A DNA stretch of 64,000 nt. It comes from Lingula anatina. Taxonomy: Eukaryota > Animalia > Brachiopoda. Shown here piece by piece: positions 1,715 through 48,700 of the stretch (its first letter is position 1; the number at the start of each line of letters is the position of its first letter). Below the pieces are notes generated by a model. That model made no database searches. It saw only the letters and a list, made by a program, of their open reading frames with translations, and was not told the origin of the DNA. The translations under genes and the position numbers were made by a program. The stretch spans positions 12,870,644-12,934,643 of the forward strand of contig CM120643.1 of assembly GCA_051362555.1 (NCBI GenBank), written 5' to 3'.

Positions 1715-19322
<17,608 letters not shown>

Positions 19323-25900: not shown

Positions 25901-27976
25901 AAATTGCTGTATTACGTCTCCCTTGCATTACTAATATCAGCACCGTTCACTTCTGAATCTCGAGTTGATTGGACATTTGCATGCTGACGGTTGGACTGGA
26001 ATTGCTCATGAACATTCAGCGAAAATACTAAGGCCATTGTTGGCGCTTTGTAAGCGGATTAAATTAGCAATAAAAACATAATATATTGCACGCATGCTAT
26101 ACCGTGGCCACGAGGCAGAGGCAAGTTAACGTCCATCACGTTAAGTGAGATTGCATGCGGTTAAAATTGGGCAATGACACGCTAAGTTAAAGATGGATCC
26201 AGAACCCAAAACTTCCTCTACATCAAATAATTATATTCCAAAAAATAATTGAAAAAATAAGAACAAAAAAGATCATGCTATTTGCACCGTTTGTTATGAA
26301 GGCCGAGCTAACATTATCTCAACGTTTTTGTAATGTCCACATAACTGGTTTCTACAAAAAGCTTTGTCGTTAATGAATTTTAATTAAAATCTCTACGCAA
26401 AACGTAAGTCATTATTTGAAGTTGTTTCTACGATGAAATGTGTTATTTGCTTGCAATAATTTACTTATATACATAAATAAATAAGCAAATCAGTTGAAAC
26501 ACGTAAGTGCACAGACAAGCAAACAATATACAAACAAGAATTAATGAATATGAAAAAGTTAAATAAATAACTATGAATAAATGCTATTTGCAACAATTGG
26601 TAAATCCCTGTAGTCACGTAAGTTTTCAGTCAGTCTAAAAAAAAAAAAAAAAAAAAAAACAACATCATCGTGTAAAATGATTATAAGTATATACTTGTTT
26701 CATCATTCCTACGTTTTGTGTATTTCATGCCCGGTCATCGCAAATATTGCAGCCCTCACGAAAAGTGAAAAGGAAAAAAATGAGCGTGCGATAGTAAATA
26801 TTTAAAGGTATTCTTGTCAAGACGTAGGTGACAAATCTGCTCCTCTCCAGATCTCGTAAAAGTCAGGGGACGGTCTCTTCTTACATCTGCTAACGTCCCC
26901 GCAGTAAAATAAGAACCGTGGATGATTTTTTTTCCACTGAGGCGAAGAAAACTTTTGAACTCAAATGGGTGTGGCCATACATATACCGCGTAAATAAGCC
27001 GTTTGTTTTCTTTTACATGGGAGTTATTTGCGTTGCATGGAATATATTGTCTTTTTTCTTAACACACATTTAATAATCATGTGGCAAGGTACATGTACGT
27101 ATACCCAAATATCATATGGTCCGAATGCTTACAGCTTTGTGAGGTCTTAGGCAAATCAGAGCCTTCATCTCAACTTAAATGCTTTTTCAGTTCTCAAGTT
27201 CATAATGTTTAAATTTTTTTCTCTTCCGTCTCATAACATTTCATACATATTCTCTAGTCTAGTCCGAGAACGAGTGCAAGAAGACAATTATTTCTTTGTC
27301 AAAGTCTATCCTGTAATCCAATGTACCGTTTAGTGCAAAAGACCTCTTTCATAGACCTGCATTTTCTGAACGATGGGCAATATAAAATCTTATTCATACA
27401 TAAAGAATTAAAGCTTATGAACAATTACCTCAGTCCTTTTGACGCACATTTACCCCCTTCAAATAAAATAAATTAAATTAAATTAAATTATTTTTGGGGA
27501 ATTGTTGCCTACTACAGTAAGGCTTTCACTAAAACTGTAATAAAGATGAAAATGGTTAAGATTCAAATGACAAATGCACTTAGACGGTGTCACGATTAAC
27601 GAAGGTGGGAATTTTATCATGCCATTTATCAAGGGGGGTTTTCTGCGAACAAATGGCGATGGTGTAAATCCTATTTTGACACGACAGCCAAACCAAAGTG
27701 GGCTGGGGGTGACGTCCTCTTGGCTCCGCCCTATGCAAAACAGCCAGTCTTTTTCCAATAATTCTTCGATTCTCAGGACTCAAAATGTAAAACACAACGC
27801 AGAGTGCAGTTTGACAATTTTTAAAAAGTCAAATATTATTAATTGTAAAAGAAACAAAGTTTGCCTTCGCCGTTGAATAAATATGCAAAAACTCAGTGCT
27901 GTTTGTAAGTTGAATCGATTTGAGCGTGCGGAACCTCCGACGCTAAGAAATAATGAGCTGTGGCCTTAAGGGTCAA

Positions 27977-27984
27977 TATATAAG
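27977..27984 (+). promoter_or_regulatory. TATA box of Ala-rich gene A
   Basis: TATATAAG 70 nt upstream of ATG 28047. Confidence 0.7.
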
Positions 27985-28046
27985 GCTGTACATGCCACCC
28001 TCAGCTACAGGTACTTCTCCTCGTCGACCACTCTCAACTCTTCATC

Positions 28047-29116
28047 ATGAAGCTGATCATCCTTGCTCTCTGCGTTGCCTACACTTGCGCCTTCGGCAAG
28101 TTCGGATATGACTTCAGGTAGGCTATGAAAAACTGAAATGGCTTCACAGCTAGGGATTTTAATGCAGATTTCTTAAGGATCAAAAATATGAGAAAACAAT
28201 GCTCTGAAAACTTTTTAGAATTGTTGCCGGTTCTTTTATCATTTAAACAATTATACAGAATGTTTGGTGATGATATATTTGCATTGAGTTTAATTCTAAA
28301 TGATAGGGATAAAAGCAATTAAGCAAAAAGTAAGCGCTCGATTTTTCTTATTGAAATTCGAAATTGATTAAGTTGATATACTTCAGTTAGCTTATAAGTA
28401 TTTTTAACTACCGTTTTGTTTTCAGCGCTGGAGAGGCCTTGAAGGCTTCCGCCAATAACCGCGCTGCTGCCGCCGCCAACGCCGCTGCCAACGCCAGAGC
28501 TGCTGCCAACGCTGAGGCTGCTGCTGCCGCCAACGCCCAGGCTGCTGCCGCCAACGCCAAGAGAACCGCCCACGCCGCTGCTGCTGCTGCTGCTGCCGCC
28601 GAGGCTGTTGCTGCCAGCAAGGCCGCCACCGCCCAGGAGAAGGCCGCTGCCGCCGCTGCTGCTGAGGATGCCGCTGGTGCTGCTCGCGTTGCCGCCAATG
28701 AGGCCGCTGATGCCGCTACTATTGCTGAGAACACCGCTGCCCGCGCTCGTGCTGCTGCTGCTGTCGCTGCTGATGCCGCCGCCAGAGCTGCTGCCGTAGC
28801 CGGTTCCGCTGCCTCCAAGGCTGCCGCATCTGACAATGCTGCTGATGGTGCTGCGGTCGCTGCTGCTGCTGCTGCCAACGATGCTGCTGCCGCTGCCCAA
28901 AACGAAGCTGGCGTCAGAGCTGCCGTCAGAGCTAGAGCCGCCGCTGCCGCCAGAGCTGCCGCTGCCGCCAGAGCCGCCGCTGCTGCCAGAGCCGCCGCTG
29001 CCGCCAGAGCCGCTGCTGCCGCCAGAGCCGCCGCTGCCGCCAGAGCTGTCAAGGGCTACGGTGGTTACGGATACTCTGGTTACGGATACGGTGGTTACGG
29101 AAAGAATGTTTATTAA
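28047..29116 (+). CDS. Secreted alanine-rich coiled-coil (silk-like) protein A, subtype 1, 253 aa
   Basis: Exon 1 28047-28117 (MKLIILALCVAYTCAFGKFGYDF, signal peptide), phase-2 GT-AG intron, exon 2 28426-29116 (~58% Ala, (RAAAAA)6, tail GYGGYGYSGYGYGGYGKNVY). 3'UTR intron 29120-29399; AATAAA at ~29517. Confidence 0.9.
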
Positions 29117-29191
29117 ACGGTAAACATCTGCATTCGTTTCTTGTTGCTATGAATATTATTAATTTATTGAATATGACAAAAATTTAACAAA

Positions 29192-29222
<31 letters not shown>

Positions 29223-29953
29223 ATGGAAACCATTTTATAATGTACTGGCATTCAATCGTCATATGTATTTTGAGTTACGCCCATTAAAGTGGAATATGAA
29301 AAAAACATATAATATGAGTAAATATATGCACAAATGATACAACACTAGAAAATAATAGTTTGTTATATATATGATTCTTCTGTTTTGTTTTTCTTCTAGG
29401 TTTGCGGAGGGATATAAACAGTTATGGAATTCTCTTACGACCGAACATCGTCGATAGAATATACATTCTGCTGTCGTTTGCTGAATTTTGTACTTATTAT
29501 AGTAGTACTGTGATAAAATAAAAATAAAAAGTATATAAAAATTTATGCAACTGTCTTTTTTTCTACCTAGTAATATTTGTCTCATCTTAATCTTTATCAT
29601 TCAAACTCTGTAATTAAGCCAAGACGTCAGTCAGACGCGTTACCTTTTGTAACGTACATGAATGCTTTGAACCATATTTAAGCATCAAAGATTTGTTCAT
29701 TTTCTTTCTCATTGGAATAACATCGAAAACAAAACATTTATTTATATAACTGCTTCTGTAAAATCGAAAAAACTTTTTTTCAGTACCTTTGCATTTGCTT
29801 AAAATGGAAATAAACACCATAAAATATATAATTTCAACTACATTAAAAGCTAAAAAAAATATGCAACCTAAAATTTCTTTGTTTCTCGTGAATGTTCACA
29901 TTTCACTATTGAGGAGGATCTTGACACTTCTTCACGAATGTGCATGTAAATGT

Positions 29954-30201
29954 CAGTGGCGTATCTGGGATTCTGCTAAAGAGGGTGGGGGTGGGGGTGG
30001 AGAGGTGGAGTGGGGGGGGGGGGCACTGGTGGCGCAGGAATAACAATATATAACAGGATGATAATACACACAACAGAAAATGAGGGAATTTTACGACATA
30101 GGTAGCGCACAGGATGCCTGGTGGGGGGGGGGGGAAGTGGAGGATAATTCCAGGTGCTCAGAAAATGGTACTTGTTTGGTGTGTTTCTAGATTCACCACT
30201 G
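29954..30201. mobile_element. Possible short non-autonomous DNA transposon
   Basis: Imperfect terminal inverted repeats cagtggcgtatctgg / ctagattcaccactg around G-rich tracts; no clear target-site duplication. Confidence 0.4.
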
Positions 30202-30978
30202 ACGTAACTGTTCTATAATTTAAGTATCATGGCAGTTTCATCCCACTATTCTGTTTTTTGAATAAAAAGGCGCGTCTACCTGTGCAAGGCATGACGTCAT
30301 CAAGATGCCAAATCTGTTACAAACTACCGTACATAAAACTAATCTCTCCCATCAATTGAGTACAGTTTTAATGACAGAACGGAAACTTCCACAGTTGCAC
30401 AGCGCACTCCTCGTGCGACACAAATTTCATTTCAAGATCGCGTGACGCGTAAAATGATAAGCGGCGATCTTGAAAGAGATGCATGTTACTGTCGAGCTAG
30501 AGTTTTGCTGCTTGGAGGTTGATGAACACGTGTATTTCCGTTATTCTTTGGAGGATTGCCTGTCACTGTACTATTAGATCTTGTTACAATGTAGTTCATT
30601 AATTGTATATGAGACTGAAGGGGATGCGTACACTGGAAGGGCGCAGTTTATGTTGTTCCAGTCGCGGTTTCAGGGTTTAAATTTGTGAATTTTTTTGGAG
30701 GGGGGGGGGGGGGGGGGGGGCGTGCCTCGAGGCAAAAGAGGTTTTGCTTCGCTTATTTGCAAGATACTTACCTATAAGATAAATGAATAATTAAAGGTGC
30801 TTCAGAGGCACACGTAACTCCCCCGACCCGCGATCTGTTGTTTGACCCCTGTTCATATGAGCCAAGATGAAATTTTTAATGAGTCACGACATTTCTGTTT
30901 GTTTGTGAACACTTAATATAGGACACTTTGGATATAGCACATAAACACGCACTACACTAAACTGAATATTTACTATTC

Positions 30979-31013
<35 letters not shown>

Positions 31014-32506
31014 GGGGAGAATCAATGGTTTAAAAATTTAAGTTTGAATATGCAAGGGTATCAAATATTATCTTCATATATCAAAAATAAAAAGTGAGTC
31101 TTATCGTCTATGTCAGAAATTTTTATTCAATTTACAGGTAAATTATAGTTATCTGTTCATGTCAGAGATACCATAATTCATGTACGGATTCTTTGAGAAA
31201 ATTTAACAATTAGACCTAAATGCACTGTATATATCACTTTGATTTAAAGTTACCCCTACATACATGTAATTCAACATAAATCATCTTATGAATAATAAGT
31301 TAAATTTCGCTTGCTTTAGAAAGCCAACGCTACTCCTCTCTTTCTTTCTTGGTATACATTATTTTGAGAATGGTAATACATTCTTGAATATTTAGGTGGG
31401 TATCAAAGCACGCACGTAAGCCGATGCATCTAGAACGTCAGTCAACATTGGGAGAGCCATACACAGTAGAACTCGGAAACCCCAGTACCGGGAAATTTTG
31501 TTTCAGCTATTACGCGGGGATTCGAGTTAGGCAATGTTCAAATTAATTTCAGCTTATTAACAAAAAAATCTGCTCCATATGATTTGTTCAAGATAAACGA
31601 TAATTGGGGGAAACACGTTACGTTGAAGAAGCGTATTTTAATAATATTTTGGTAGAAAATATTAAACATTATACATCTAAACGTATTAGGCGGGCGGGAG
31701 CTCGAGGGAAAGGGGGCGCACAGCAGCTTCGGTTAAACCATTTTAAGAAAATCCTCAGCACTCTAGTCTTTACTAAAAAATACTCCAGCGAATAAATTTC
31801 AAATATTGATGGAATACTAGCATTTCTCTCAAGTGAATTAAAGAGGTACTTTCCTGTCGGCGAATAGCACAAGTCAAAAGGAAGCCAAGATGGTACTTTT
31901 TATATTTATTTTATTTGTTTTATCAATAACACAAACATAATTTCGAACTAACGATGGTCCGCTTCGCAATGGCGGTGACCAATCGACGATGTTGCGTTGT
32001 TCGAGAATTGTCCATCACCGTGTTTTCGTACAAACCCTGAAAGTGAACAAAACAGTGAATAAATATCAAGACACTTGTCATGAAGAACATTTTTTTTTTA
32101 TCTAATGATGATCCAACCACACTGGAATGATTTTGGATAACAATTTGAGGACGACAGAAATTATAAACGTTTCCAATGTTTTAACTTAGAACCCAAAGGA
32201 AATATAACTTGAAACGTTTAATCCACATTTATAGGCATTAAAGTACTTTCCGCGTGAAATAAGACATTTTGAACGTAAAGATCCGCTTATTGCTATGACG
32301 ACCGAGTTGTAATACATGCATTTTGAATAGATTGATCGATTGTCACATTGTGTAATTGTAATGTTTAAAAACTTTGATATGCTTAGAACTTGGAAATCAG
32401 TTTTCTTATCTTTCGATTTTAAAAATTGACTCATGAGTATGTTTGCATTCTAAGACTTAAGCATAACAAGCGTCTGTTGAAAAACAAAAATAAAACTTAC
32501 AACTTT

Positions 32507-33456
32507 TTATCCCTTCTTAAGGTAGCCGTAACCGTATCCGTAGCCTCTGACGGCAGCGGCGGCTCTGGCGGCAGCAGCGGCTCTGGCGGCAGCGGCGGCT
32601 CTGGCGGCAGCGGCAGCTCTGGCGGCAGCAGCGGCTCTGGCGGCAGCGGCGGCTCTAGCTCTGACGGCAGCTCTGACGCCAGCCTCGTTACGGGCGGCGG
32701 CAGCAGCGGCGCCGGCGGCAGCAGCAGCAGCGGCCTCAGCACCATCAGCAGCGTCGTCAGATGCGGCAGCCTTGGAGGCAGCGGAACCGGCTACGGCAGC
32801 AGCTCTGGCGGCGGCATCAGCAGCGACAGCAGCAGCAGCACGGGCACGGGCAGCGGTGTTCTCGGCAACGGTGGCAGCCTGAGCAGCCTCATTGGCAGCC
32901 TCACGGGCAGCAGCAGCAGCAGCCTCAGCAGCAGCGGCGGCAGCAGCCTTCTCCTGGGCGGTGGCGGCCTTGCTGGCAGCAACAGCCTCGGCGGCATTGG
33001 CAGCAGCAGCAGCGGCGTGTGCGGTTCTCTTGGCGTTGGCGGCAGCAGCCTGGGCAGCGGCGGCAGCAGCAGCCTCAGCGTCGGCAGCAGCTCTGGCGTT
33101 GGCAGCGGCGTTGGCGGCGGCAGCAGCGCGGTCGTTGGCGGCGGCCTTCACGGCCTCTCCGGCGCTAAAACACAATATTTCTGTATTTTAATATGCCATA
33201 TTCGTACTAATCAAAATCATCCTATTAACCATTTAAATTCAACTTGTATTAATCTTTCAAAACATCCTTAGTTATTACTATGTAGCTATTTTCCACTTTC
33301 TCCTTTATTCAAGTTTCATCACCAACTTAAAAAAAAAAAGGAAAATCCGTTTGCGAGAGAAAAAGGCTAACTGCAGATTGCTCACCTGAAGTCATATCCG
33401 AACTTGCCGAAGGCGCAAGTGTAGGCAACACAAAGAGCAAGGATGAACAGCTTCAT
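32507..33456 (-). CDS. Secreted alanine-rich coiled-coil protein B, subtype 1, 242 aa
   Basis: Exon 1 33456-33386 (MKLFILALCVAYTCAFGKFGYDF), exon 2 33164-32507 (close paralog of A, tail GYGYGYGYLKKG). 3'UTR intron 32500-32037. Confidence 0.9.
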
Positions 33457-34018
33457 GGTGACGATCGGGAGACGAGAGAATACCCTGTGACAACCCTTCA
33501 GATCTTCACGCTTTTATACGCACCAGCCCGAAGAGACCAATAAATTATCTTTATTTGTTTTCGAGTCAAATGTCGCTTTTTTCTTTAAATGCGACAAGAA
33601 AAGGAAAATCTCCAGACAATACCGCAATTTTATCCGAATTATTGTTATTGGCATGCGATTGAATCAGATTTACTTGATTGAGTGAAGTGGCTTATTAATT
33701 AGAAACGAAGACCTTTTAGCGTGACACCTATGCTTTATTTGAGCAACTGCATTCACGTCACGCAATTTGTTTGTTTTTTTCTTCAGAGACTGCTTTCATG
33801 AACAGTCAAATGATCTGGTCCAACCAGCATGAAATTGAAATATGCATGCAAATCAGGAACGTGAAAAACCCATATAAATCAATTTAATTCCTAAAATTCA
33901 TGTTCAAAGACGAGAAAAACAACAAAAATGGGCGTCCCAAAAAAAGCCAGATCGGCCTATAAAAGGTTGCTGGAGCTAGTAGCCAAGCACTGGTGATCAA
34001 AACCTCCACGTCTCTAAC
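33457..34018. promoter_or_regulatory. Divergent promoter shared by genes B and C
   Basis: 562 bp between the two ATGs; outward-facing TATAAAAG boxes at 33518-33511 (-) and 33958-33965 (+). Confidence 0.8.
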
Positions 34019-35101
34019 ATGAAGCTCGTCATTCTTGCTCTCTGCGTGGCTGCTGCCGCTGCTGTTGGAAAGGGTCGTTATGGCCTCTATGGCTACTATG
34101 ACTACCGTGGTGTCGTTGCCAAGTAAGTTAACTTATTCTTTTTCAGATTTTTTTAATCAAGTTTTGTTTAACTTTGGTGTTTCTAGAACTTATGTGAAAT
34201 GGTTCATTCAAACCTTTATTTGCTATTCAGCCTTTTTTTTTTGTTTAATTTCAATATTCTGTACCGGGATTTTCATTTATTTTCTTCTCTCTCTCTCTTT
34301 GTTAAATTTAGAGGGAAATTAACTGTGAGAGAACAAGACATTTCTTTAGCCTAGTGTTAAGATGATTGAAAATGATAAACCAAGATTTCATCTCCTGTAT
34401 ACGGATCATGATTTCGTTTTGTATATTCCAGCGCTGCTGCCGCTAGAGTAGCCGCCGACAACCGTGCTGCTGCTGCTGGTGCCGCTGCCGGTAATGCTAG
34501 AAATGCTGCCAACGCCGATGCTGCTGCCGCTGCCAATGCTGCTGCTGCCGCTGGCGCCGCTAGAGGTGTTGCTGCCGACCGTGCCAACGTTGCTGCTGCT
34601 GCTACCGCTGCTGCTGCTGCTGCCAGAGCCGACGCCAACGACAAGGAAGCTGCTGCTCAGGCTGCTGCCGCTGCTGCCGCTGCTGCCCGTGCCGAGGCCA
34701 ACGAGGCTGCCGCTGATGCCGCTGCTGCTGCCGCTGCTGCTGGCCGTGCCCGTGCTTCTGCCAACGCCGCTGGTGCTGCCTCCGCCGCCGCCGCTGACGA
34801 CGCCGCTGCCAAGGCTGCCAGTGCCGCCGCCGCTGACAATGCTGCTGATGGTGCCGAGGGTGCTGCCGCCGCTGCTGCCAACCGTGCCGCCAGAGTCAGT
34901 GCTGCCGTCGACGCTAGAGCCGCTAGAGCTAGAGCCGCCATCGAGGCCGCCAGACAGGCCGCTGCTGCCAGAGCTGCCGCTGCCGCTAGAGCTGCTGAGG
35001 CCGCCAGAGCTGCCGCTGCCGCCAGAGCTGCCGAGGCCGCTGCTGCTGCCCAAGCCGCCCAGTTCAAAGGATTCGGCTACGGATACCCCAAGAAGGGTTA
35101 A
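34019..35101 (+). CDS. Secreted alanine-rich coiled-coil protein C, subtype 2, 257 aa (not in ORF track)
   Basis: Exon 1 34019-34122 (MKLVILALCVAAAAAVGKGRYGLYGYYDYRGVVA), phase-2 intron, exon 2 34432-35101 (NAAAARVAADNRAAAAG...QAAQFKGFGYGYPKKG*). 3'UTR intron 35105-35337; AATAAA at ~35466. Confidence 0.9.
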
Positions 35102-38100
35102 ATGGTAAGGCTCATTGGTTTTATATTTTAGCCCTTATTTTATAAACTGCCCTGTCTTCAAATATGTTCATATTTACTCCAGCATTTTTCCTTTAAAATA
35201 TTAAGATCTGCTTCGAATTTACCCATATATTCGTTTTTACTTCAAATTCAAATTATGATAATCTACAAGACATTATATATTCTTTACTTTAAATTGGCCA
35301 CTTTTAAAGATTTCATTTTCTGATTTTTTTCTTTCAGACGTTTAGCGTGTGCGGTGATGGAAACCCAGTGGACGACAAGACCAACATCGTCGTTGAACGT
35401 TGGCATTTTTCTTGAGAATGCCGATTGTCGTTTGCTGATATTTTGTGTTAGTTACACTCTATAAAAATAAAAATTAAAAAAATTATAAATTTTTTGTTTT
35501 CTTCTTTAACGTTTTCTTCTTTTATTTCATGAAGTTTTGAGATTCACTGATTCATATTAAACACGCGACAATTAATTTTTTTCAACTTTTTCATTTGAGT
35601 AAAATATCGAATTTTGAAAACATGGACAGTAATGAATTTTTCTCAAGACAAAAGAAATTAATAGCGAACTCGAATGTTTAAATGTAGTATTTAGAATAAA
35701 TGAACAAATGGATGAACAAAAGAAGAAATTAACTTTGGGTAGCTATAAAAAGAATAGCGAACGCGAACACATTAAGTTTTAATGTACTATTCATTGTCAG
35801 TAACTCGCCCACTGAACCCGTTAGAGATTCGCATTAGAAAGGGTAATTGAATAGACATCTTACTCATATCTAAGCTATGGTTTAGTAATCGTGCTCACTC
35901 ACTTAAAGATATAATTGAAAAATAAAAAAGATAACATTATAAAGCACAGTGCGGTCCCTGTTTTAGTTGATTTCCAATCTCTTCAATTAGTAAAGATGGG
36001 GTCAAACTGATAGGGAAGGACTACTCTATCTTATAACTGGTTTACACATATTTTATTGTTCTTAAATTTTGTACAATTGCAAACATACAAGACTTTCTGT
36101 ATCCGGGCTAAATAAGTAGACAGCGAACAGTGGGGCTATTTCATATTTCTGTTTTTCTTCATTATATTTGCGTGTAGTTAACCCATGGGTATGGCATCCA
36201 GTTAACAAAATAAACCGATTCGAGGCGGGCCATTAGTTTGCTGAAGGATTCCATGTACATGCAAGAAGAATAAAAAGCAGAGACAAATCAAATAAAACGT
36301 AGCTTGGGAAATGCAATATACATTTGGCTACGTTGTGCAAATTTATTGTCTGGACGCTCTTAATGGTTTTAACACGCGATTCAGCATTAAGAAAACTTTC
36401 TTTACTGTACAATCCCATAAACCATTGCGCCTACTGTATCAAAGAGAATGAATGTAATTACTAAGATAGAAATGAAGATAGACATGGTATTAGGGAGGTG
36501 GAAATTTGAAACAGATGTTGTTTAGCCTAATGCTCACCTGATGGTATGCGTAGACATACAGACTGGTTTTTAAGTTACTGACTTCTCTGAACCTCATTAT
36601 TCCCTTTCACTTAATACATGTACCCCGGTATGATGAAATCCCCCTTATCCTTCCCTCCTAGACGAATCGTGACACCCCTCCATTTCATATAAATATTTCA
36701 TTTTAGAGTCTTTGTTGTAGGATACTGGAATTCAAATAAATCCCCAAAGGCAACACGTCCTGTTTATCATTTGGACATGTCTTGTTTTCCCCATGTCATT
36801 CCCTTTTTTCACACAACTCTGTCGCGTCTCCGCCGGTCGTTCTACATGTAAGTCTTATACGGGTCGTCCGGCCCATTGTCGTTAATAGGTTCAGATTTCT
36901 TAATTGATATACACCTCCACGAGTAGAGTACAATCACGGATATAGACAACTAACTTCATCGTTACAAAAATAACTAAATACTACATACATGTAACCATAT
37001 GCTAGATTTGATCTCGACGCCTATCAACTTTTTGCCCTCATTAATATGCATAGGCCAGGTTAAATGATGTGGTCACCAAATATTTTGTATAAAATTCATT
37101 TTTTAACTTGTTAAATTTCATTGTTAATGTAAATCCCTATGGTTGCTCAATCTGTGCTTACAAGCGAATAGGTTTATTTGTTTGACGGAATATAGTCCAA
37201 CTCTTGTTCGGATAAATCCCCTATTTAAGAAAAGACCGGCTCACCGTTTAGGAGTCTTGTACACTGTGCTGCGGACTAGCTTATGTGTCAGAGGATTACG
37301 TCGGTAATTATTAATTGAACACTGACAGAATCTTTTACTGTTCTACTAATATCATTTATAATTCCCTGGTATAAGCAAATACTACATGTACCGTCTAAAA
37401 GACACGTGGAAATGCTACCTTTGGCTGACTAAAGAACATACTGCCTTCATACATTCGCAGGTTATTACCAAAAACCGTTGACGACGCGTTTCCTTTTTTG
37501 GCCTTTCATTTCGATGCAACATGCATGAAATGACAATATTCGGTTCCAAGGGTCAACCGTCGGTGGGCGTGGGAACACTGACGTTTCTAACAAACTCTCG
37601 CGAGATCTCGTACGTGATTTTACATCACGCTACGTCATGTCTAAGTTGATGCTCTCGTCTTGACTGAACAAAAGCGATAATCACGGGACTGATACGCTTT
37701 AAGTAAATAACTTGAGTGATTGATTTCAAGTTGAGATTAAATGTATCTTGCCATCTATAATCACTGAAAAATGAAAATCAAGTGATGTTGAGGGGGACAA
37801 GGGGTCCTTGTAAGAAGGAGGGGTGGAGCCGTAAATGGATTTTCATATCTTCAGAAATAAAAATTATGCCGGGGAAACAGCGAGCAAAGTTCAGTATAGT
37901 CTTTTGAAAAATTGGGAAAGATCCCAAGCAGCAATAAAAAGTTCTTTTTTCTATTCGAAAAAGAAAAATAATATACGGACTATTTACTGACTTTGTACTA
38001 TACTAGTACCATAAAATGACGAAATAAGACAAAGCGTGAATAAATACAATATTGAAATATGAATCAGCGTTTTCTTCTGTTTGACTGGCAAAGAGCTATT

Positions 38101-39806
38101 GTGGATATCTTCATTATGGAGTCAATTGTTATGGCAAAAATTAACTTAACAAGATAAAAGTAATCGTTGATGGTATCTTCCCAGTAGGCTGAAGAAAACT
38201 CGCGCGCAGCACGCGACCAAATTCTGACAACAGAAAAGGTGATACATGAAAAAACCTTTTATGATTTCGAAGTTGTTAAACAGGTTTTCCAAGATACGTG
38301 TAGCAAAAATAGTGCAGGGAATTTGATCACTTCAGAAGAAACTTATTATTCGAATCCCTGGCTTTAGTATCCGAGAAGTTCCTCCCAAACCCCACAATAC
38401 AGTAAAAATAAACCAGTACAAAAACTATTTATTAACTTTCTATCTTTAGATAATGAAGAATTCCGCATACCACCAGCGATGAGCGTGCAGCGTGTCTGGA
38501 TTACGCCGGATCCCCGTTAATTATAACCGAAACACGTCACATGCACCACATGTATTGAGGTGCTCAGGCACACCCCTTACTGTGGCAAACGAGGCACGTG
38601 GCGTTAAGTACTGTACCGTATAAACTGGGCGGTCACAAGATGCACACGTACACGTGTATTTAGCGTAAGAATGCGATTCAGAAACATTATTAAAATCTCT
38701 CATTAGAACTCTCATTATATGATGAGTCACAGTCAAGTTACCTTTTCGTGTTGCAATAAGAAAAAGGCCAGTGAAGTAGCGGAGGAGGTGAAAATAACTC
38801 AACTGCTTAGAATGATAAAACCCGCTGTACTCGCCGTGATTACCATTCACACTTTCCATCTCGTGTTCCAAAGTTCTTCTGCGTATTTGTCTTGTCATTG
38901 TTCCATCGAACCTAATCCATGACAAAGGTAAATTGAAGCAAAAGAATATTTACGGGCAACTGAAGAAAACGGCAAACTTTTCGTAAACGGCATACTACGT
39001 TTTCTGCATTTAAAGAGTGTCCATCTCTCACTGAGCCAACAGATAAAAGGTTTAAGTTATGCCAAACGCCTGTGTCGTGCAAAGGAAGTATACGAAAAAC
39101 GATTCTCGTCCACCCCCGTCCACAGACATCAAAACAGCAGACACATTCTAGAATGTGAGTCGACTTTTAATGCTATAAAAAAAGAAAAAGTGAACTGAAA
39201 TATTCATAAGTGTTATATAACTTGAATGTACCATGATGAAAATTTTTTGATCTTCAGAAATCGCAAGTGTGAAACAAAATCTAAATTCAGAATCGCGAAA
39301 ATGGTGGTTATTCAAAGTGTCTCGAACAACAATAAATATATAAACAGTAAAATGCGTTTACTTACTTGTGAAACTGACACTTGTAAAAGAAGAAAATACA
39401 TCGAAGGCGCGATCAAAATCAGTTTTCGCCGAGTTAATCGCGGCTTAATCCTCCCCTATTCTTTCAATCTTAACCCGTGAATGAGACTACTTTAATGTTT
39501 TTCGTTATTGTTGTATTTAATTGAATTTACCATTACTATATGTTAACTGCACCTGTCAGTCCGTTAATGCAGTTTTAGCATGCAATTTGGAAATAGGTAT
39601 AATTCTTTTATTCATTTCAGTCGCACCATATATAATGTTTTACTAGAAATTTATATCAATCATTTCCAATATGACGACAACTGTTTTAATATATGTTGAG
39701 GTAAAGTGTGGCATGAAAAGCGAGAAATTCAACAATACAGCATTATTGTAGTTTTTCCTCAACTTGACTAAAGCATGAAAACCGAATATTCATTATACTT
39801 CACTAA

Positions 39807-40228
39807 AGGGCTCATTCCCATTTAAACTATAGGTCTACATAGATCGATCACAGATGAACACGCCTCACCTTGTTTTTACAGCGTACACGTATAATCACTA
39901 CCCTCTACCAGGACCACAGATTTTTTTACTAGGTATTTTAATACTATTAATTATAACTATGAATAATAAGAAGTAATAATAATAATATGTTAAAACAGAT
40001 ATGTCTCTGGTTAAATAGACGGCAATTCTCTGTACTGTGCAAAAAATGTCCACAGAATAATAACTGCGGCCCTGGTAGAGGGTATATAAACACCAACTTT
40101 TCTGTATTCTACTCAACCTAAGGAGGAAGCATATCACGTTAATCTGTTAAACTGACTGTACACAGCGAGAGTCCCCGCGGAATTGGATTAGTCTACTTAG
40201 AACGATAGTTTCAATGGGTCTGAACCCT
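39807..40228. mobile_element. Third copy of the MITE family with a different interior
   Basis: Left agggctcattccca...tagatcgatc; right cagcgagagtcccc...gatagtttcaatgggtctgaaccct. Confidence 0.65.
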
Positions 40229-40518
40229 AAGAATGGCACGAACAGGTAGACAGTCAACAAAGCCCTTCAGAAGTGAGCCAAGACTGATGCACCAACGCGG
40301 CACCACCAATGCCCACTCTGTATTTGGAGACGTTCTATTATATATTTTCCCTTATAAGACATGACTAACATATGAAAACCAGATATTCATTATTGTGTCA
40401 CAAGACTCCCTCAAGGTGACCGTTAAAGTACTTATTTAAAAAAAAACAAGAAATAAAAAAATGGAGCCTTCTCAGTTGGGCAATGATTTCATTAAAAGTT
40501 ATTTCATGTCGACATTCC

Positions 40519-40520
<2 letters not shown>

Positions 40521-40577
<57 letters not shown>

Positions 40578-40598
40578 GTGTGTGTGTGTGTGTGTGTG
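40521..40598. repeat. Compound (ATT)n(GT)n microsatellite
   Basis: Directly visible. Confidence 0.9.
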
Positions 40599-42084
40599 TT
40601 GGACGATCATCAGTTTTATATTAGAAATCTTTTAGGGTCTTTTGGAGTCATCGTTTTTATCGTTGTTTGTGTAATTGTTGGCAGACATTGATTGCTAGTT
40701 GTGACTGGTTTGAGACAGGTGACAGTAGTCAAATACCTAGATACACCTAATGTTTACGCGCTAGAATATTGGCCATGAATACTCAATCAAATATTACTTA
40801 CTGATATTTTAATTTTTGAATTTGGCATTATACTTATGTGCATGAGCACCAGTTAAATTTTTTATATTTCTTCATGAATGCAGCGCCCTTTAGCACCCAG
40901 AGCATCTCAGGTAGGATATATATACAATGCGCTATTTTGGGTTGACATAGTAACCTCAGAAACGCTAGTATTACGTCTCCCGGGACACCATTGGACCATT
41001 GTGGAAAATCTATGAATAATTGTATTCACATTTCATAAGTTTAATCATTCATATGCTGTGAGAGCGGTTTTGTGATATCTTTTTGGCGTATTTACCTCAC
41101 TATAAGTTATTTTTAGGATCTTTTTTTTTTTTTTTACGAATTTCTTACTTTTTGAACACATCTGCATAGTTCAATGAATTCACTTCGAGGATAACTTAAC
41201 TGAATAAGTCAAAATATCTAAAATGTCTTATCACATGACGACCTTCAGGAATTTTAGTGCATTCAATTTTCTTTCCAGACAAACGAACTTAGAACGCATT
41301 GCAGGAAGTACCTCAGTACGCACGCGCATTTGTATTGGCACCTGAACGCTCAGAAAACAACCCGATCCCTGTATTTGGAAACTATTATGCCGTCCAAATT
41401 TTTAAATTCTGTCTCAATAATTTCGTCGAAACTGAATTTAGAGGGAAAAAGGGAAAAGGGGAGTTCATTGCTGTTTTTCTTTGTTTAGCCACAAAGTTAA
41501 GTGCACCATTTTCAAGTAAATTCACGCTGTTTTTGTCACATACTTTCCAACAATCTATATCTATATCAATAATTCATTAGGTATTCAAATGAACAAAGTC
41601 AGATGTATATATTTTTATATTTTTTATATTTATTACAATTGTAATCACAGTACACATCACACAGAATATCAGCAAACGACGGAATATCGTTAATAATTGC
41701 GAGCGTTCTACGACGAGGGTGGTCGCGTCGTCTGTGAGGTTACCTTCACCACTCTACATGCTGCATCTGAAAGAGGATAGAAGCATAATTAAAAACCTGA
41801 GAGTTGAAAATGTTTTTGTGCCATCCTCTCAGTATTGCGACACTAGTATCACACCCATTGACGAAACCGCCCTCCTTGTCAAGATCTCCATTTGTACGCA
41901 GTATTGATAATTTCGTTCCATTTCTTAATTAAAAGATGACTGAATTAATACCTCTGACTCTCATTCTTCAGTTCGTTCTTATCTCATTTATGTACTTAAT
42001 CTATTAAAGTCAAATACCAGAATTTAACATAGTGAGTGGAAGAAATAACTTTAGAAACTATAGATGAATACAGATGATTACCGT

Positions 42085-43177
42085 TTAATAAACATTCTTT
42101 CCGTAACCACCGTATCCGTAATCAAGGTCAGCGTAACCATAGCCTGGAGCCTTGACGACAGCGGCGGCTCTGGCGGCAGCAGCGGCTCTGGCAGCAGCGG
42201 CGGCTCTGGCGGCAGCAGCGGCTTGGGCAGCAGCAGCGGCTCTGGCTCTGGCAGCAGCAGCCTGTCTGGCGGCCTCGATGGCGGCTCTAGCTCTAGCGGC
42301 TCTAGCGTCGACGGTAGCGCTAACTCTGACAGCACGGTCGGCAGCAACAGCGGCGGCACCAGCGGCACCATCGGCAACATTGTCAGCACGGACAGCGCTG
42401 GCTGTCTTGACAGCGGCATGGGCATCAGCGGCGTTGGAGGCACCAGCAGCGGCGTTGGCAGCAGCACGGGCACGAGCAGCGGCAGCGGCAGCAGCAGCGG
42501 CATCAGCGGCAGCCTCGTTGGCCTCAGCACGGGCAGCAGCGGCAGCGTGGGCAGCAGCCTGAGCAAAAGCTTCCTTGTCGTTGGCGTCGGCTCTGGCAGC
42601 AGCAGCAGCAGCGGTAGCAGCAGCAGCAACGTTGGCACGGTCGGCAGCAACACCTCTAGCGGCGCCAGCGGCAGCAGCAGCATTGGCAGCGTAAGCAGCA
42701 TCGGCGTTGGCAGCATTTCTAGCGTTACCGGCGGCGGCACCAGCAGCGGCAGCACGGTTGGCGGCGGCTACTCTAACAGCAGCAGCGCTAAAGTATAATA
42801 TGTCAATATGTTAAAAATAGAACTTGATATCCCTCAACTGAGAAAAATAAAGAAGAACAACAAAGATAACTAAAATGCACATTTTCAAAGGCCTATTGAC
42901 CAATCGCATAAAATAAAATAAAATAGGTTTGCTAAAACAAACGAAATCTTGACCGATCAGATATTAGCTGTAAGGAAAAAAATTCAATTTATTGTTGCTT
43001 TGTATTTAAAATAAATTCAAAAAGATAAAAATAAAATAAAAAAGTCAGAGTATAAAATCTGCATGCTTACTTGGCGATGGCACCACGGTAGTTATAGTGT
43101 CCATAATCGTAACCATAACGTCCCTTTCCAACAGCAGCGGCAGCAGCCACGCAAAGAGCAAGAATGATGAACTTCAT
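42085..43177 (-). CDS. Secreted alanine-rich coiled-coil protein D, subtype 2, 269 aa (not in ORF track)
   Basis: Exon 1 43177-43071 (MKFIILALCVAAAAAVGKGRYGYDYGHYNYRGAIA), exon 2 42787-42085 (paralog of C, tail VVKAPGYGYADLDYGYGGYGKNVY*). 3'UTR intron 42081-41767. Confidence 0.9.
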
Positions 43178-43244
43178 ATTTGAGGCTTTGAGGTCAGATC
43201 CGAGCCGAGAAATCAAGGATAGTGAGGTGGACACACAGGTCAAC

Positions 43245-43252
43245 CTTTTATA
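43245..43252 (-). promoter_or_regulatory. TATA box of gene D
   Basis: cctataaaaggttg on the minus strand, identical to the TATA context of gene C. Confidence 0.75.
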
Positions 43253-44898
43253 GGAGAGGTTTCGTACTTGGAACCGCCCTCATGCGTCCAATTTCCATCA
43301 ATAAAAGTGACTGACGGCTTCAAAGTGAAAGGGAAGCCCAGAATTATCCTCAGTTGGTGTCAGGAAGGCATTTAAAAACGAGGCTACATCTGCAAGGTGG
43401 TGACATGCGACTCGGGAGATTTGCTGGACTTTGTGTAAAATCACCGTATCTGAAAAAAATTTTCAGTTTCTCTGCAAAACTACATTTCATGGTCAAAACA
43501 ATCGTTTTTGCGCACGTATGATGGTTCGTTTGGGCATTAGGAGCTTCTTACTGAAAATATAATTTGATGACTGTTGATTTTACGTGTTGGTAGCTTTGGT
43601 TGAAGCCCCTCCCCGAGGCTATCTTGGCCGCAGATGGCTAAGAGCAATGGAAATTCGGTATAATGACCTTCGTCTCGGGAATTTCGTATTAAGCAATGAT
43701 TGTCAACTGGCAAAATACATTATCATAAGATAAATGCCCTTTGCAAGTATGTATTTGGTGGCGTGATGAAGCAAAGAAGAAAGTCAGTAAGCAGCAGCAG
43801 GCGATGATAATTACGTATGACTTTTCTCAAATTTACCAAACAAAGATGCCACGCATGTTTTTTGATATAATCATTTGGGTAAAAAACGATTTGTTTTTAT
43901 TTTTCTTAGGCAAAGACATCTTTTTCGCATGGGCTATGGACATGCAAAATGAAGTGAGTTTTCCTCCTTTTTTCCCAAAGAGAGTGAAACTACAAAATTT
44001 TGCTTAGCATCTGTGACGTGTCTTATTTATGAAAGATGATGATGTTGACGGTGGTTATTCAAGACAAACAGTCAGCCTTTTCACTCGTTTGTTCAGATAA
44101 GCTCATATGTTTTTTTATTTTATCATAATAAGGTACGCTTACCTTAAGTAGTACTTTCAGCTTTAATGGGGTTACAACCTACATGTATTGGACAATAGAA
44201 CTTCTGTCCATTTCACTAACAAAGGTAATCAGGCGGGTCCTATTGTTTTTATCTTTTTTATGAGTATTCGTTGTAAAAAAACGTGTTTACTCACGAAACT
44301 GTCACTGTCAGTAAGTGACCTGTCGGTTTGGTTATCATCTTAACTGCTTGTAAGTATAATAAAATTGTATGTAATGCTTCTCATCGTGATTGAGATTTAT
44401 GTATTGCTTGACCATTTTGGTTCTAACAATCGACATTTTAGAACACACGGTATTGGTGAACAATGTGCTCTATAAATGCACGCTTGCAGATTTTTTACAA
44501 GTGCTAACAAAAATTTTTATCAATAGGCAGAATCCTAATGTTTAAAAGGCAGTGTGCGTGATCACCCAGTCTGGAATGGTCCCAGTTTTGGTAAATAAGG
44601 TGCACCGGTGTCCAGTAAATGCAAAGAACGCAAGTAAAGGTCCCCTTGGAGAAGTAATAAAGATGCAAACATGAGAAGATTTATATCAATGTGATGTATC
44701 TAAGTTTAAAACTCGATTGAGTGACGGTCAGAAAATTTGTTACATGTCCTTTATTTTGCGAGACCACCTCCAGGGTTTTAACCCCCCTACCCTTCCCCGT
44801 TTCTTGGAGGCATATTTCAGAACAATCCTAAACCTTTCACGTATCTGTCACAGAAAGGGTCTAGTATAAAAGAGATCCACCTTTTAATATGGAACTTT

Positions 44899-45759: not shown

Positions 45760-48700
45760 TGTGTTTGGTCATTTGTAGTAAGAATAAAGTGCTGGAAGAG
45801 CGGTGGTGTCAACATTAAGGAAGAAATAGAGCAAAAACTCTGTCTCCCCCCCTCTCATATTCTGTTCTCGGGGCTTATTTTTGGATCATCTTTAAAGCTG
45901 GAATTGGGGGCTTTAATGAAGTGATCCGGGCGGACAGGTGTGGTAGATTTATTTTCATCACATTTTGAAAAAAATCAGAGACGGGTCAATTCTGGGTGAT
46001 ATTGAGTGATTTTCATAAGGGCCGGATACGGCAGTTTCCCTCAATTTTGGCCAGGTAGGGAAAAATTTTTTTTTCTTCATTATATTGTCAGGTATGTGTG
46101 TTTGGTCATTTGTAGTGAGGGTAAAGTACTGGAAGAGTGGTTGTGTCATTATTAAGGAAGAAATAGAGCAAAAACTCTCTCCACCCCCCCCTCTCCAAAT
46201 CCTGTTCTCAGGTGTGCTTTCTGGCAATCTTTAAAGCTGAAATTGGGGGCTTTAATGAAGTGATCGGGTGCGTTTCCACATTTTTTATGAATGACAGGTG
46301 TGGTAAATTGATTTTCATGACTTTTTAGAAAAATTGTTGACGGGTCATTTTTGGGTGATTTTGAGTGATTTTCGTAAGGTCCAGATATGGCAGTTTTCTT
46401 CAATTTTGGCCAGGTAGGGATGAAAAATTTTTTTCTTCAATATTGTGTCAGGTAGGTGTGTTTGGTCATTTGTAGTGAGGGTAAAGTACTGGAAGAGTGG
46501 TTTTGTCATTATTAAGGAAGAAATAGAGCAAAAACTCTCTCCACCCCCCCCCCTTCTCTCTCCAAATCCTGTTCTCAGGTGTGCTTTCTGGCAATCTTTA
46601 AAGCTGAAATTGGGGGCTTTAATGAAGTGATCCGGGTGCGTTTCCACTTTTTTTATGAATGACAGGTGGGGTAAATTGATTTTCATGACTTTTTAGAAAA
46701 ATTGTTGACGGGTCATTTTTGGGTGATTTTGAGTGATTTTCGTAAGGTCCAGATATGGCAGTTTTCTTCAATTTTGGCCAGGTAGGGATGAAAAATTTTT
46801 TCTTCAATATTGTGTCAGGTAGGTGTGTTTGGTCATTTGTAGTGAGGGTAAAGTACTGGAAGAGTGGTTTTGTCATTATTAAGGAAGAAATAGAGCAAAA
46901 ACTCTCTCCACCCCCCCCCCTTCTCTCTCCAAATCCTGTTCTCAGGTGTGCTTTCTGGCAATCTTTAAAGCTGAAATTGGGGGCTTTAATGAAGTGATCC
47001 GGGTGCGTTTCCACTTTTTTTATGAATGACAGGTGTGGTAAATTGATTTTCATGACTTTTTGGAAAAATTGGTGACGGGTCATTTTTGGGTGATTTTGAT
47101 TGATTTTCGTAAGGTCCGGATATGGCAGTTTTCTTCAATTTTAGCCAGGTAGGGATGAAAAATTTTTTTCTTCAATATTGTGTCAGGTAGGTGTGTTTGG
47201 TCATTTGTAGTGAGGGTAAAGTACTGGAAGAGTGGTTGTGTCATTATTAAGGAAGAAATAGAGCAAAAACTCTCTCCACCCCCCCACTCTCCAAATCCTA
47301 TTCTCAGGTGTGCTTTCTGGCAATCTTTAAAGCTGAAATTGGGGGCTTTAATGAAGTGATCCGGGCGCGTTTCCACATTTTTTATGAATGACAGGTGTGG
47401 TAAATTGATTTTCATGACTTTTTGGAAAAATTGGTGAGGGGTCATTTTTGGATGATTTTGAGTGATTTTCGTGAGGTCCGTTTATGGCAGTTTTCTTCAA
47501 TTTTGGCCAGGTAGGGATGAATTTTTTTTTTCTTCAATATTGTGTCAGGTAGGTGTGTTTGGTCATTTGTAGTGAGGGTAAAGTACTGGTAGAGTGGTTG
47601 TGTCATTATTAAGGAAGAAATAGTGCAAATACTCTCTCAACCCCCCCCCCCTCTCTCCAAATCCTGTTCTCAGGTGTGCTTTCTGGCAATGTTTAAATCT
47701 GAATTTGGGGGCTTTAATGAAGTGATCCGGGCGCGTTTCCACGTTTTTTATGAATGACAGGTGTGGTAAATTGATTTTCATGACTTTTTGGAAAAATTGG
47801 TGACGGGTCATTTTTGGGTGATTTTGAATGATTTTCGTAAGGTCCGGATATGGCAGTTTTCTTCAATTTTAGCCAGGTAGGGATGAAAAATTTTTTTCTT
47901 CAATATTGTGTCAGGTAGGTGTGTTTGGTCATTTGTAGTGAGGGTAAAGTACTGGAAGAGTGGTTGTGTCATTATTAAGGAAGAAATAGAGCAAAAACTC
48001 TCTCCACCCCCCCCTTCTCTCTCCAAATCCTGTTCTCAGGTGTGCTTTCTGGCAAGCTTTAAAGCTGAAATTGGGGGCTTTAATGAAGTGATCCGGGCGC
48101 GTTTCCACATTTTTTATGAATGACAGGTGTGTTAAATTGATTTTCATGAATTTTTGGAAAAATTGGTGACGGGTCATTTTTGGGTGATTTTGAGTGATTT
48201 TCGTAAGGTCCAGATATGGCAGTTTTCTTCAATTTTGGCCAGGTAGGGATGAAAAATTTTTTTCTTCAATATTGTGTCAGGTAGGTGTGTTTGGTCATTT
48301 GTAGTGAGGGTAAAGTACTGGAAGAGTGGTTGTGTCATTATTAAGGAAGAAATAGAGCAAATACTCTCTCAACCCCCCCCCCCCTTCTCTCTCCAAATCC
48401 TGTTCTCAGGTGTGCTTTCTGGCAATATTTAAAGCTGAAATTGGGGGCTTTAATGAAGTGATCCGGGCGCGTTTCCACATTTTTTATGAATGACAGGTGT
48501 GGTAAATTGATTTTCATGAATTTTTGGAAAAATTGGTGACGGGTCATTTTTGGGTGATTTTGAGTGATTTTCGTAAGGTCCAGATATGGCAGTTTTCTTC
48601 AATTTTGGCCAGGTAGGGATGAAAATTTTTTTTCTTCAATATTGTGTCAGGTAGGTGTGTTTGGTCATTTGTAGTGAGGGTAAAGTACTGGAAGAGTGGT

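What the first reader, a model, noticed from the sequence alone, without database searches (positions are those of the whole stretch)
28047..43177. Four-gene cluster of secreted alanine-rich coiled-coil proteins: candidate undescribed silk-like / structural fibre system
Seen: four paralogs (A+, B-, C+, D-) with the same architecture: TATA box, a short exon encoding a signal peptide plus an aromatic/Gly/Lys head, a phase-2 intron, then one exon encoding a ~200-aa Ala-rich rod and a Gly-Tyr-Lys tail. Exon 2 of A has no Cys, Met, Trp or Pro, and Ala is encoded almost only by GCT/GCC. Two subtypes exist (A/B and C/D). Known: aculeate Hymenoptera silk is made from four clustered paralogous Ala-rich coiled-coil fibroins, and mantis ootheca and whelk egg-capsule proteins are also coiled-coil biomaterials. 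Inference: this is an independently evolved, highly expressed hetero-oligomeric coiled-coil fibre (egg case, tube, byssus, periostracum, cuticle or similar) cross-linked via terminal Tyr/Lys. I do not recognise it as a named family.
Basis: partly seen in the sequence, partly recalled or inferred. Interest (0 to 1): 0.88.

Follow-up and report, generated by a model that had tools for sequence, protein, structure and literature searches.

The report
Lamp-shell alanine coiled-coil shell proteins
These four neighbouring genes encode already-reported alanine-rich proteins of the shell of the lamp shell Lingula, and a seven-residue pattern found here suggests that they likely wind into rope-like coiled-coil fibres, not antifreeze proteins as a database label says.

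Summary
The four genes are real, but they are not undescribed. They are the alanine-rich shell matrix proteins of the brachiopod Lingula. All 9 published shell peptides of three Lingula anatina accessions occur in A, C and D. A and B match the 2015 gene models 18761 and 18760 in length and closely in composition, and model 18759 is reproduced as a truncated C. C heads a published shell iBAQ table.

New here: across 152 gap-free columns only periods 7 and 14 of 2-18 are significant (0 of 2000 shuffles), with Ala at 93% of a and 80% of d sites, and the subtypes differ by exactly 7 residues. This supports an alanine-core coiled coil over the published three-helix monomer model, and the RefSeq name 'antifreeze protein Maxi' fails its defining test. 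Hetero-oligomer, fibre and Tyr/Lys cross-links are untested; published peptide intensities do not look equimolar. Known family, modest new structural insight.

The parts
27977..27983 (+). TATA box of gene A
28047..28117 (+). Gene A exon 1 CDS: predicted signal peptide and Gly/Phe/Tyr/Lys head
   Evidence: hydropathy
28426..29116 (+). Gene A exon 2 CDS: Ala-rich rod, R(A)5 hexamer run, GYGY tail. A = model 18761 / XP_013416054.1 (253 aa)
   Evidence: 4 of 4 published peptides match, 2 of them A-only
28430..28885 (+). 152-codon gap-free heptad block in A
29120..29399 (+). Predicted 3' UTR intron of A (GT-AG); exon 3 from 29400, AATAAA at 29517 and 29523
   Evidence: no read depth on this exon
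31915..32036 (-). Gene B non-coding exon 3, up to its poly(A) signal (AATAAA starting at 31915 on the minus strand)
   Evidence: read depth and 464-nt skip
32037..32500 (-). Gene B 3' UTR intron (464 nt, GT-AG)
   Evidence: joints skipping 464 nt in X7 (240 reads), X8 (80), X9 (138); the reads differ from the window at the junction
32507..33164 (-). Gene B exon 2 CDS. B = model 18760 (242 aa) by length and composition
33165..33385 (-). Gene B intron 1 (221 nt, phase 2)
   Evidence: spliced in X7 (455 reads), X8 (161), X9 (282)
33386..33456 (-). Gene B exon 1 CDS
33481..33998 (.). Head-to-head spacer of B and C, about 520 nt between read 5' ends, with TATA boxes at 33518 (minus) and 33958 (plus); candidate shared promoter
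   Evidence: read ends at 33478-33481 and 33998-33999
34019..34122 (+). Gene C exon 1 CDS
34123..34431 (+). Gene C intron 1 (309 nt, phase 2)
   Evidence: spliced in X8 (101 reads) and X9 (224)
34432..35101 (+). Gene C exon 2 CDS (full protein 257 aa). Published models are shorter: 18759 (103 aa) and XP_013416030.1 (191 aa)
   Evidence: 2 of 2 published peptides match at 34691-34747 and 34814-34885
34891..34893 (+). Internal CAG; splicing exon 1 to 34894 in silico gives the 103-aa product with the published values of model 18759
   Evidence: no such joint among the joints shown
35105..35337 (+). Gene C 3' UTR intron (233 nt); exon 3 from 35338, AATAAA at 35466
   Evidence: spliced in X7 (38 reads), X8 (33), X9 (60)
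41767..42081 (-). Predicted 3' UTR intron of D; exon 3 from 41766 down to AATAAA at 41634
   Evidence: almost no read depth on this exon
42085..42787 (-). Gene D exon 2 CDS. D = XP_013416053.1 (269 aa, 25.219 kDa in both)
   Evidence: 3 of 3 published peptides match
43071..43177 (-). Gene D exon 1 CDS; TATA box at 43252

Best explanation
These four genes encode alanine-rich shell matrix proteins of the brachiopod Lingula, which likely fold as long alpha-helices that likely pack into alanine-core coiled coils and would form part of the flexible organic framework of the phosphate shell. Shown here: gene structure; splicing of B and C; identity with published shell proteins; a conserved seven-residue register over about 22 heptads. 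Published by others: shell peptides, mantle expression of 18760 and 18761, an alpha-helical and poly-alanine Raman signal of the whole shell. Inferred: secretion through the N-terminal signal peptide; helix packing through Ala at a and d with charges at e and c; lateral or end-to-end assembly into fibrils; contact of the Arg-rich hexamer run and the net positive charge with glycosaminoglycans or phosphate; hardening by oxidative cross-links at the Gly-Tyr/Lys ends. Oligomer state and partner choice are open.
For: Identity: 9 of 9 shell peptides listed for XP_013416054.1, XP_013416030.1 and XP_013416053.1 are tryptic peptides of A, C and D; 0 of 6 control masses from two other Ala-rich Lingula proteins match. 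D has the published length and mass (269 aa, 25.219 kDa). A and B have the lengths of 18761 and 18760 (253, 242 aa) and close composition. C with one internal acceptor gives all five published values of 18759; 1 of 15 in-frame acceptors in C, and none in A, B or D, gives 103 aa. C is the first row of the shell iBAQ table, 4.85e6 against 1.64e6 for the next. Coiled coil: of periods 2-18, only 7 and 14 are significant for columns hydrophobic in all four proteins (0 of 2000 shuffles); each protein alone gives period 7 at p 0.007-0.04; Ala fills 93% of a and 80% of d against 48-56% elsewhere; no indel in 152 columns of GCT/GCC-rich DNA and a subtype difference of exactly 7 residues, although the first introns have lost all similarity. 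AlphaFold2 gives about 200 residues of helix for A and C. Raman amide I of L. anatina shell is assigned to alpha-helix at 1654 cm-1 with a poly-alanine band at 905 cm-1 (PMC9057340). The same paper set lists a peroxidasin and a laccase-like protein in the shell proteome, which could make cross-links.
Against: The heptad signal is modest in single sequences: Fourier power at 3.5 reaches p<0.05 only for A and B, not C and D, and D also shows period 5 (p 0.02). The four sequences are homologous, so the pooled test is not four independent samples, and the scoring feature was chosen after a first look. Charged residues show a stronger 3/6 periodicity, partly from the hexamer run, which is not a heptad. 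The core has almost no large hydrophobic residues at a or d. AlphaFold2 used only four sequences, pTM 0.39-0.44, and tends to call Ala-rich chains helical. The Raman signal is of whole shell and overlaps glycosaminoglycan and chitosan bands. The 2026 table marks the A-type accession as having no signal peptide, against the 2015 table. A differs from the RefSeq mass by 58 Da, and A and B are about one point lower in acidic residues than the 2015 models. The 2015 alignment is a picture and could not be read, so B's identity rests on length, composition and position. No cross-link or fibre evidence exists.
Confidence: 0.72

Rival explanations
1. The proteins are shell matrix proteins that fold back on themselves as monomeric helical hairpins or three-helix bundles, as Luo et al. 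2015 proposed, and act as compact elastic units rather than as multi-chain fibres.
For: I-TASSER model in the 2015 supplement. AlphaFold2 breaks the helix once, at about residues 64-70 of exon 2, in both A and C, and the C model aligns to helical hairpins and to 4TQL (Z 9.4, 147 residues). A heptad is also compatible with intrachain packing.
Against: The published model had estimated TM-score 0.4 and C-score -2.72. The register runs without phase shift, gap or Pro through 152 columns. The Z scores are in the range the tool calls common for long helices.
Confidence: 0.12
2. The proteins are stored as helices or disordered chains and end up as beta-sheet poly-alanine crystallites in the shell, like silk or the oyster proteins MSI60 and Shelk2.
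For: 12-16 poly-Ala blocks of 4-9 residues per protein; period-2 and period-3/6 signals once the hexamer run is included; the 2015 supplement draws this comparison.
Against: No Gly-rich spacers; conserved heptad register; shell amide I at 1654 cm-1 and not at about 1668 cm-1 as in beta-sheet silk (PMC9057340).
Confidence: 0.1
3. The proteins are ice-binding antifreeze proteins, as the RefSeq name 'antifreeze protein Maxi' implies.
For: RefSeq names; a weak Foldseek row to Maxi, 4ke2, E 2.4; similar Ala content and length.
Against: Maxi is built of 11-residue TX10 repeats (PMC5304152). Period 11 is absent (p 0.96-0.99 pooled; 0.64-0.98 singly), the rods hold 1-4 Thr and no pair is 11 apart. The proteins are shell components.
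Confidence: 0.01

Closest known systems
Lingula anatina alanine-rich shell matrix proteins 18759/18760/18761 (Luo et al. 2015, PMC4595640); RefSeq XP_013416054.1, XP_013416030.1, XP_013416053.1 (PMC13425148 supplement)
   Same: The same genes: tandem cluster, signal peptide, poly-Ala blocks, R(A)4-5 motif, GYGY motif, lengths, and identical shell peptides.
   Different: The 2015 paper lists three copies and a 103-aa model for C; the 2026 tables list three accessions, with a 191-aa model for C and apparently none for B. Here four full genes with a third non-coding exon. Neither paper's text that I read describes a heptad or coiled coil.
Aculeate (honeybee) coiled-coil silk, fibroins F1-F4 (PMC12284834)
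   Same: Four paralogs; Ala-rich central region of about 210 aa with unstructured ends; heptad with highest Ala content in the core; register kept between paralogs.
   Different: Insect larval silk against brachiopod shell. Here two subtypes of two close copies (91% and 83%), 52-57% Ala, an Arg hexamer run and Gly-Tyr ends. The antiparallel heterotetramer is shown for bee silk and untested here. No sequence link was found.
Winter flounder type I antifreeze protein Maxi
   Same: About 200 aa, Ala-rich, helical; source of the RefSeq name.
   Different: Maxi has 11-residue Thr repeats and a water-filled core; these proteins have a 7-residue register and 1-4 Thr.
Oyster poly-alanine shell proteins MSI60 and Shelk2
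   Same: Ala-rich shell matrix proteins of lophotrochozoans (comparison made in the 2015 supplement).
   Different: They have longer poly-Ala blocks (9-13 and 7-8) read as beta-sheet, in carbonate shells; here blocks are mostly 4-6 within a heptad rod. Their sequences were not compared here.

Membership tests
Lingula alanine-rich shell matrix proteins (Luo 2015) | Tandem copies on one scaffold | tested here: met
   Four copies in 15 kb; paper reports three
Lingula alanine-rich shell matrix proteins (Luo 2015) | Poly-Ala blocks, R(A)4-5 motif and GYGY motif | tested here: met
   4 of 4 proteins have 3-8 R(A)4-5 and 1-3 GYGY; motifs defined
Lingula alanine-rich shell matrix proteins (Luo 2015) | Length, mass, pI and composition of 18759, 18760, 18761 | tested here: met
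   Lengths exact for A, B and truncated C; Ala and Gly within 1 point; acidic about 1 point lower and pI 0.1-0.25 higher for A and B
Lingula alanine-rich shell matrix proteins (Luo 2015) | Peptides in the shell proteome | tested here: met
   9 of 9 published peptides match A, C, D; 2 of them also fit B; no B-only peptide seen
Lingula alanine-rich shell matrix proteins (Luo 2015) | Signal peptide | tested here: inconclusive
   Hydrophobic N-terminus in 4 of 4; SignalP not available; 2015 table says yes, 2026 table says yes for D, no for the A-type and the partial C-type accession
Lingula alanine-rich shell matrix proteins (Luo 2015) | Mantle-enriched expression | not testable with these tools
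   Run tissues are coded; expression is sample-restricted, 3 of 8 runs; the paper marks 18760 and 18761 as mantle-high
Aculeate coiled-coil silk | Four paralogs with an Ala-rich region of about 210 aa | tested here: met
Aculeate coiled-coil silk | Heptad with Ala-rich a and d core kept between paralogs | tested here: met
Aculeate coiled-coil silk | Antiparallel heterotetramer of the four chains | not testable with these tools
   Needs biochemistry or cryo-EM as in PMC12284834
Aculeate coiled-coil silk | Sequence homology to silk fibroins F1-F4 | tested here: inconclusive
   No hits, but those searches also missed the Lingula RefSeq proteins; no direct pairwise comparison made
Aculeate coiled-coil silk | Spun as silk by bee, ant or hornet larvae | tested here: not met
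   The genes are of a brachiopod and their products are in the shell
Type I antifreeze protein Maxi | 11-residue TX10 repeat | tested here: not met
   No period 11; 1-4 Thr, 0 pairs 11 apart
Type I antifreeze protein Maxi | Ice binding and thermal hysteresis | not testable with these tools
   Needs an assay
Beta-sheet poly-alanine shell proteins (MSI60, Shelk2) | Poly-Ala blocks of 7-13 residues | tested here: not met
   Most blocks are 4-6; 1-3 blocks per protein reach 7-9; block sizes of the oyster proteins

The most novel reading that the evidence does not exclude
The most abundant protein of the Lingula shell belongs to a coiled-coil fibre system that arose independently of bee silk but on the same plan: chains of the two subtypes (B with C from their head-to-head promoter, A with D sharing a tail) co-assemble into narrow alanine-core hetero-oligomers about 25-30 nm long, which are cross-linked at Gly-Tyr/Lys ends into a keratin- or silk-like scaffold for apatite. 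A calcium phosphate skeleton would then rest partly on an alpha-helical coiled-coil fibre, not only on collagen and chitin.
Probability: 0.3. Interest if true: 0.65.

Novelty: already known. Interest (0 to 1): 0.3.

Why it matters
The genes are known, so the discovery claim falls. What is useful: a corrected four-gene, three-exon annotation (C was published truncated twice; B seems missing from the protein set used in 2026); evidence that the 'antifreeze protein Maxi' name is a composition artefact; and a testable structural reading. These small, Cys-free, single-exon rods could be made recombinantly. If they form alanine-core coiled-coil fibres, they would explain the long-noted high alanine and alpha-helical signal of the flexible Lingula shell and add a convergent coiled-coil biomaterial that works with apatite.

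Tried and rejected
Homology searches were empty: phmmer with exon 2 of A and with the C-terminal part of D at E<=10, a profile of all four against 1.84 billion representatives, Pfam for 4 of 4 proteins, ESM Atlas. A local control shows that near-identical copies would score E 1e-50 or better, and the Lingula RefSeq proteins exist, so these blanks show only that the libraries or their filters did not return them; they say nothing on absence in other brachiopods. Foldseek on PDB gave no match at E<=0.001; VIA-align gave generic long-helix matches, best Z 11.9. The complex prediction for B with C gave no verdict (score 0.27, mark 0.34). No RNA holder was listed by index; 8 of the 9 listed runs were laid, X6 was not. 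Meckelin could not place the organism: best single-exon identity 60%, no near-identical hit among the 120 of 764 hits listed. A shared RNA structure in the third exons was considered: 34 of 163 columns are invariant, but only 1 of 4 folds better than shuffles (C, z -2.8; others -0.8 to 0.2), so it was dropped. Reads laid on A were rejected as proof of A's expression: 11 of 16 listed differences are B's letter and A's third exon has no depth; D likewise has almost no depth on its third exon. Opposite-strand joints (A exon 1 to B exon 2; C exon 1 to D exon 2) were read as mapping between paralogs or alleles, not trans-splicing; not tested. No whole genome was held. Three look-ups of earlier findings returned nothing. 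Full protein N-termini were not found in the 2026 supplement, which holds peptides only in the parts seen.


Full report
Observation. Four genes lie at 28047-29116 (A, +), 33456-32507 (B, -), 34019-35101 (C, +) and 43177-42085 (D, -). Each has a TATA box 61-75 nt before the ATG, a short first coding exon, a phase-2 GT-AG intron and one long coding exon; the proteins are 242-269 aa and 52-57% Ala. A/B are 91% identical, C/D 83%, and the subtypes 59-62%. The tails cross the subtypes: A and D share 72 of 90 nt around the stop, B and C 50 of 90, other pairs 36-41. B and C lie head to head, with read 5' ends about 520 nt apart.

Expression. Of 9 RNA runs listed, 8 were laid. X7, X8 and X9 (one study) carry reads on the exons; X1-X5 carry essentially none, only poly-G and repeat noise. 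Both introns of B and both of C are spliced as predicted. The reads differ from the window at many fixed sites, so they come from other animals of the same species label. Reads on A look like B: 11 of 16 listed differences are B's letter, against 2 of 11 for C versus D, and the third exons of A and D have almost no depth. These runs therefore show expression of B and C only.

What it is. Sequence, family and fold searches gave nothing usable, and the neighbouring meckelin gene did not place the organism. The literature did. Luo et al. 2015 (PMC4595640; I read main-text passages, and supplement parts 3, 9 and 19 plus searches; the alignment in Suppl. Fig. 26 is a picture and was not readable) describe three tandem Lingula anatina shell matrix proteins with signal peptide, poly-Ala blocks, an R(A)4-5 motif and a GYGY motif. 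Their table gives 18761 as 253 aa, 23 kDa, pI 9.7, Ala 53, Gly 6, acidic 7, and 18760 as 242 aa, 22 kDa, pI 9.6, 57, 5, 8. A computes to 253 aa, 23.2, 9.82, 53.8, 6.3, 5.9 and B to 242 aa, 22.2, 9.84, 57.0, 5.0, 7.0: lengths exact, acidic content about one point lower. Model 18759 (103 aa, 10 kDa, pI 10.3, 43, 9, 5) is reproduced by joining C's exon 1 to an internal CAG acceptor at 34894 (103 aa, 10.2, 10.33, 42.7, 8.7, 4.9); 1 of 15 in-frame acceptors in C gives that length, and none of the 42 in A, B and D.

Direct sequence proof comes from a 2026 shell proteome (PMC13425148; passages, section 8, supplement searches and parts 21, 126, 129). It lists three accessions named 'antifreeze protein Maxi': XP_013416054.1 (253 aa), XP_013416030.1 (191 aa) and XP_013416053.1 (269 aa). 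All 9 of their peptides are tryptic peptides of A (4, of which 2 also fit B), C (2) and D (3); 0 of 6 control masses from two other Ala-rich Lingula proteins match. D has the same mass as XP_013416053.1 (25.219 kDa); A differs from XP_013416054.1 by 58 Da. Both C peptides lie upstream of 34894, so the part missing from model 18759 is translated. The C accession is the first row of the iBAQ table of 97 shell proteins (4.85e6; next 1.64e6); I saw the top 6 and last 23 rows, both in falling order, not the middle. D has 4.1e5 and A 1.0e5. The two peptides shared by A and B are marked unique there, which suggests that B was not in the searched set.

How it likely works. The four rods align without a gap over 152 columns. 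Scoring columns that are hydrophobic in all four proteins, only periods 7 and 14 of 2-18 exceed shuffles (0 of 2000 each); two other scorings agree, one with a weaker period 5. Singly, period 7 has p 0.011, 0.007, 0.036 and 0.042 for A-D. Two positions three apart hold Ala in 93% and 80% of residues, against 48-56% elsewhere; a third takes most Val/Ile/Leu, and charges peak at the position after d. The subtypes differ by exactly 7 residues before the hexamer run (167 against 174), while the first introns show no remaining similarity. GCT/GCC runs should slip easily (general knowledge), so this points to selection on register. AlphaFold2 gives two long helices for A and for C, with low pTM and four sequences. 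Raman spectra of L. anatina shell put amide I at 1654 cm-1, read as alpha-helix, with a poly-alanine band absent in Discinisca (PMC9057340; passages and first part of Discussion). Honeybee silk is a 24-heptad antiparallel heterotetramer of four paralogs with the most Ala at core positions (PMC12284834; passages). I conclude that these chains likely form alanine-core coiled coils in the organic framework of the shell. Fibre formation, binding of the Arg hexamer run to polyanions and Tyr/Lys cross-linking are inference; a peroxidasin and a laccase-like protein are in the published shell lists, but nothing links them to these proteins.

Results against this reading. Fourier power at 3.5 is significant only in A and B, and charged residues show a stronger period 3/6. 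The pooled test uses homologous sequences and a feature chosen after a first look. The Raman band is of whole shell. For the hetero-oligomer in particular, published peptide intensities are far from equal: 0.9-3.9e7 for C, 0.2-5e6 for D and 1.4-4.1e5 for A-type peptides, including the two shared with B. That argues against a fixed 1:1 ratio of subtypes in that extract, though peptide response and allelic differences could distort it, and in 2015 B's model had 9 peptides. The 2026 table also scores the A-type accession as lacking a signal peptide.

Comparison and membership. The genes are members of the Lingula alanine-rich shell matrix family; every feature that could be tested was met or inconclusive. 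They work like aculeate coiled-coil silk in layout but are not members of it. They are not Maxi: that protein is made of 11-residue Thr repeats (PMC5304152; passages), and here period 11 is absent and no two Thr are 11 apart.

Novelty. Already known as genes and as shell proteins. A coiled-coil reading was not found in print: 'coiled' has 0 occurrences in the main texts of the 2015 and 2026 papers, and searches returned no such paper (seen as listing only). The library lacks most subscription papers, bioRxiv supplements were closed, and most of the 2026 supplement was searched by term, not read, so prior mention is not excluded. Interest 0.3: the claim of a new system falls, but a corrected annotation and a testable structure for the top protein of a phosphate shell remain.

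Noticed in passing
window about 1715-19322, + strand: Multi-exon meckelin (TMEM67) gene, ending about 8.7 kb before gene A; 40-70% identical per exon to mollusc, nemertean and vertebrate proteins.
   Followed up: partly
window 45933-64000: A 365-bp satellite, at least 45 copies at 94% match, running to the window's end with a strong GC skew; possibly centromeric or subtelomeric.
   Followed up: no
window 6477-7219: Tandem repeat of 146/289 bp, about 5 copies, inside the meckelin gene.
   Followed up: no
window 29117-29119, 32501-32506, 35102-35104, 42082-42084: In all four genes the last intron starts 3-6 nt after the stop codon, near enough to escape nonsense-mediated decay by the 50-nt rule (recalled); the third exons keep two short conserved blocks.
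   Followed up: partly
window 29062-29149 and 42052-42139: A and D share an 88-nt stretch (85%) over the tail, stop and splice donor although their rods are of different subtypes; gene conversion or a chimeric origin is possible.
   Followed up: partly
window about 39800-40200: Partial reads with loose ends in all eight RNA runs, with a similar motif near 22920; probably a dispersed transcribed repeat.
   Followed up: no
window 27700-43500 (RNA reads): Reads under the same species label differ from the window at many fixed sites, with in-frame insertions in C's head and tail, which may reflect population divergence or cryptic species.
   Followed up: no
not in window (PMC13425148 and PMC4595640 tables): Other Ala-rich Lingula shell proteins exist (XP_013380692.1, XP_013421240.1; models 11493, 21207, 22634) and could be partners or further coiled-coil chains.
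   Followed up: no
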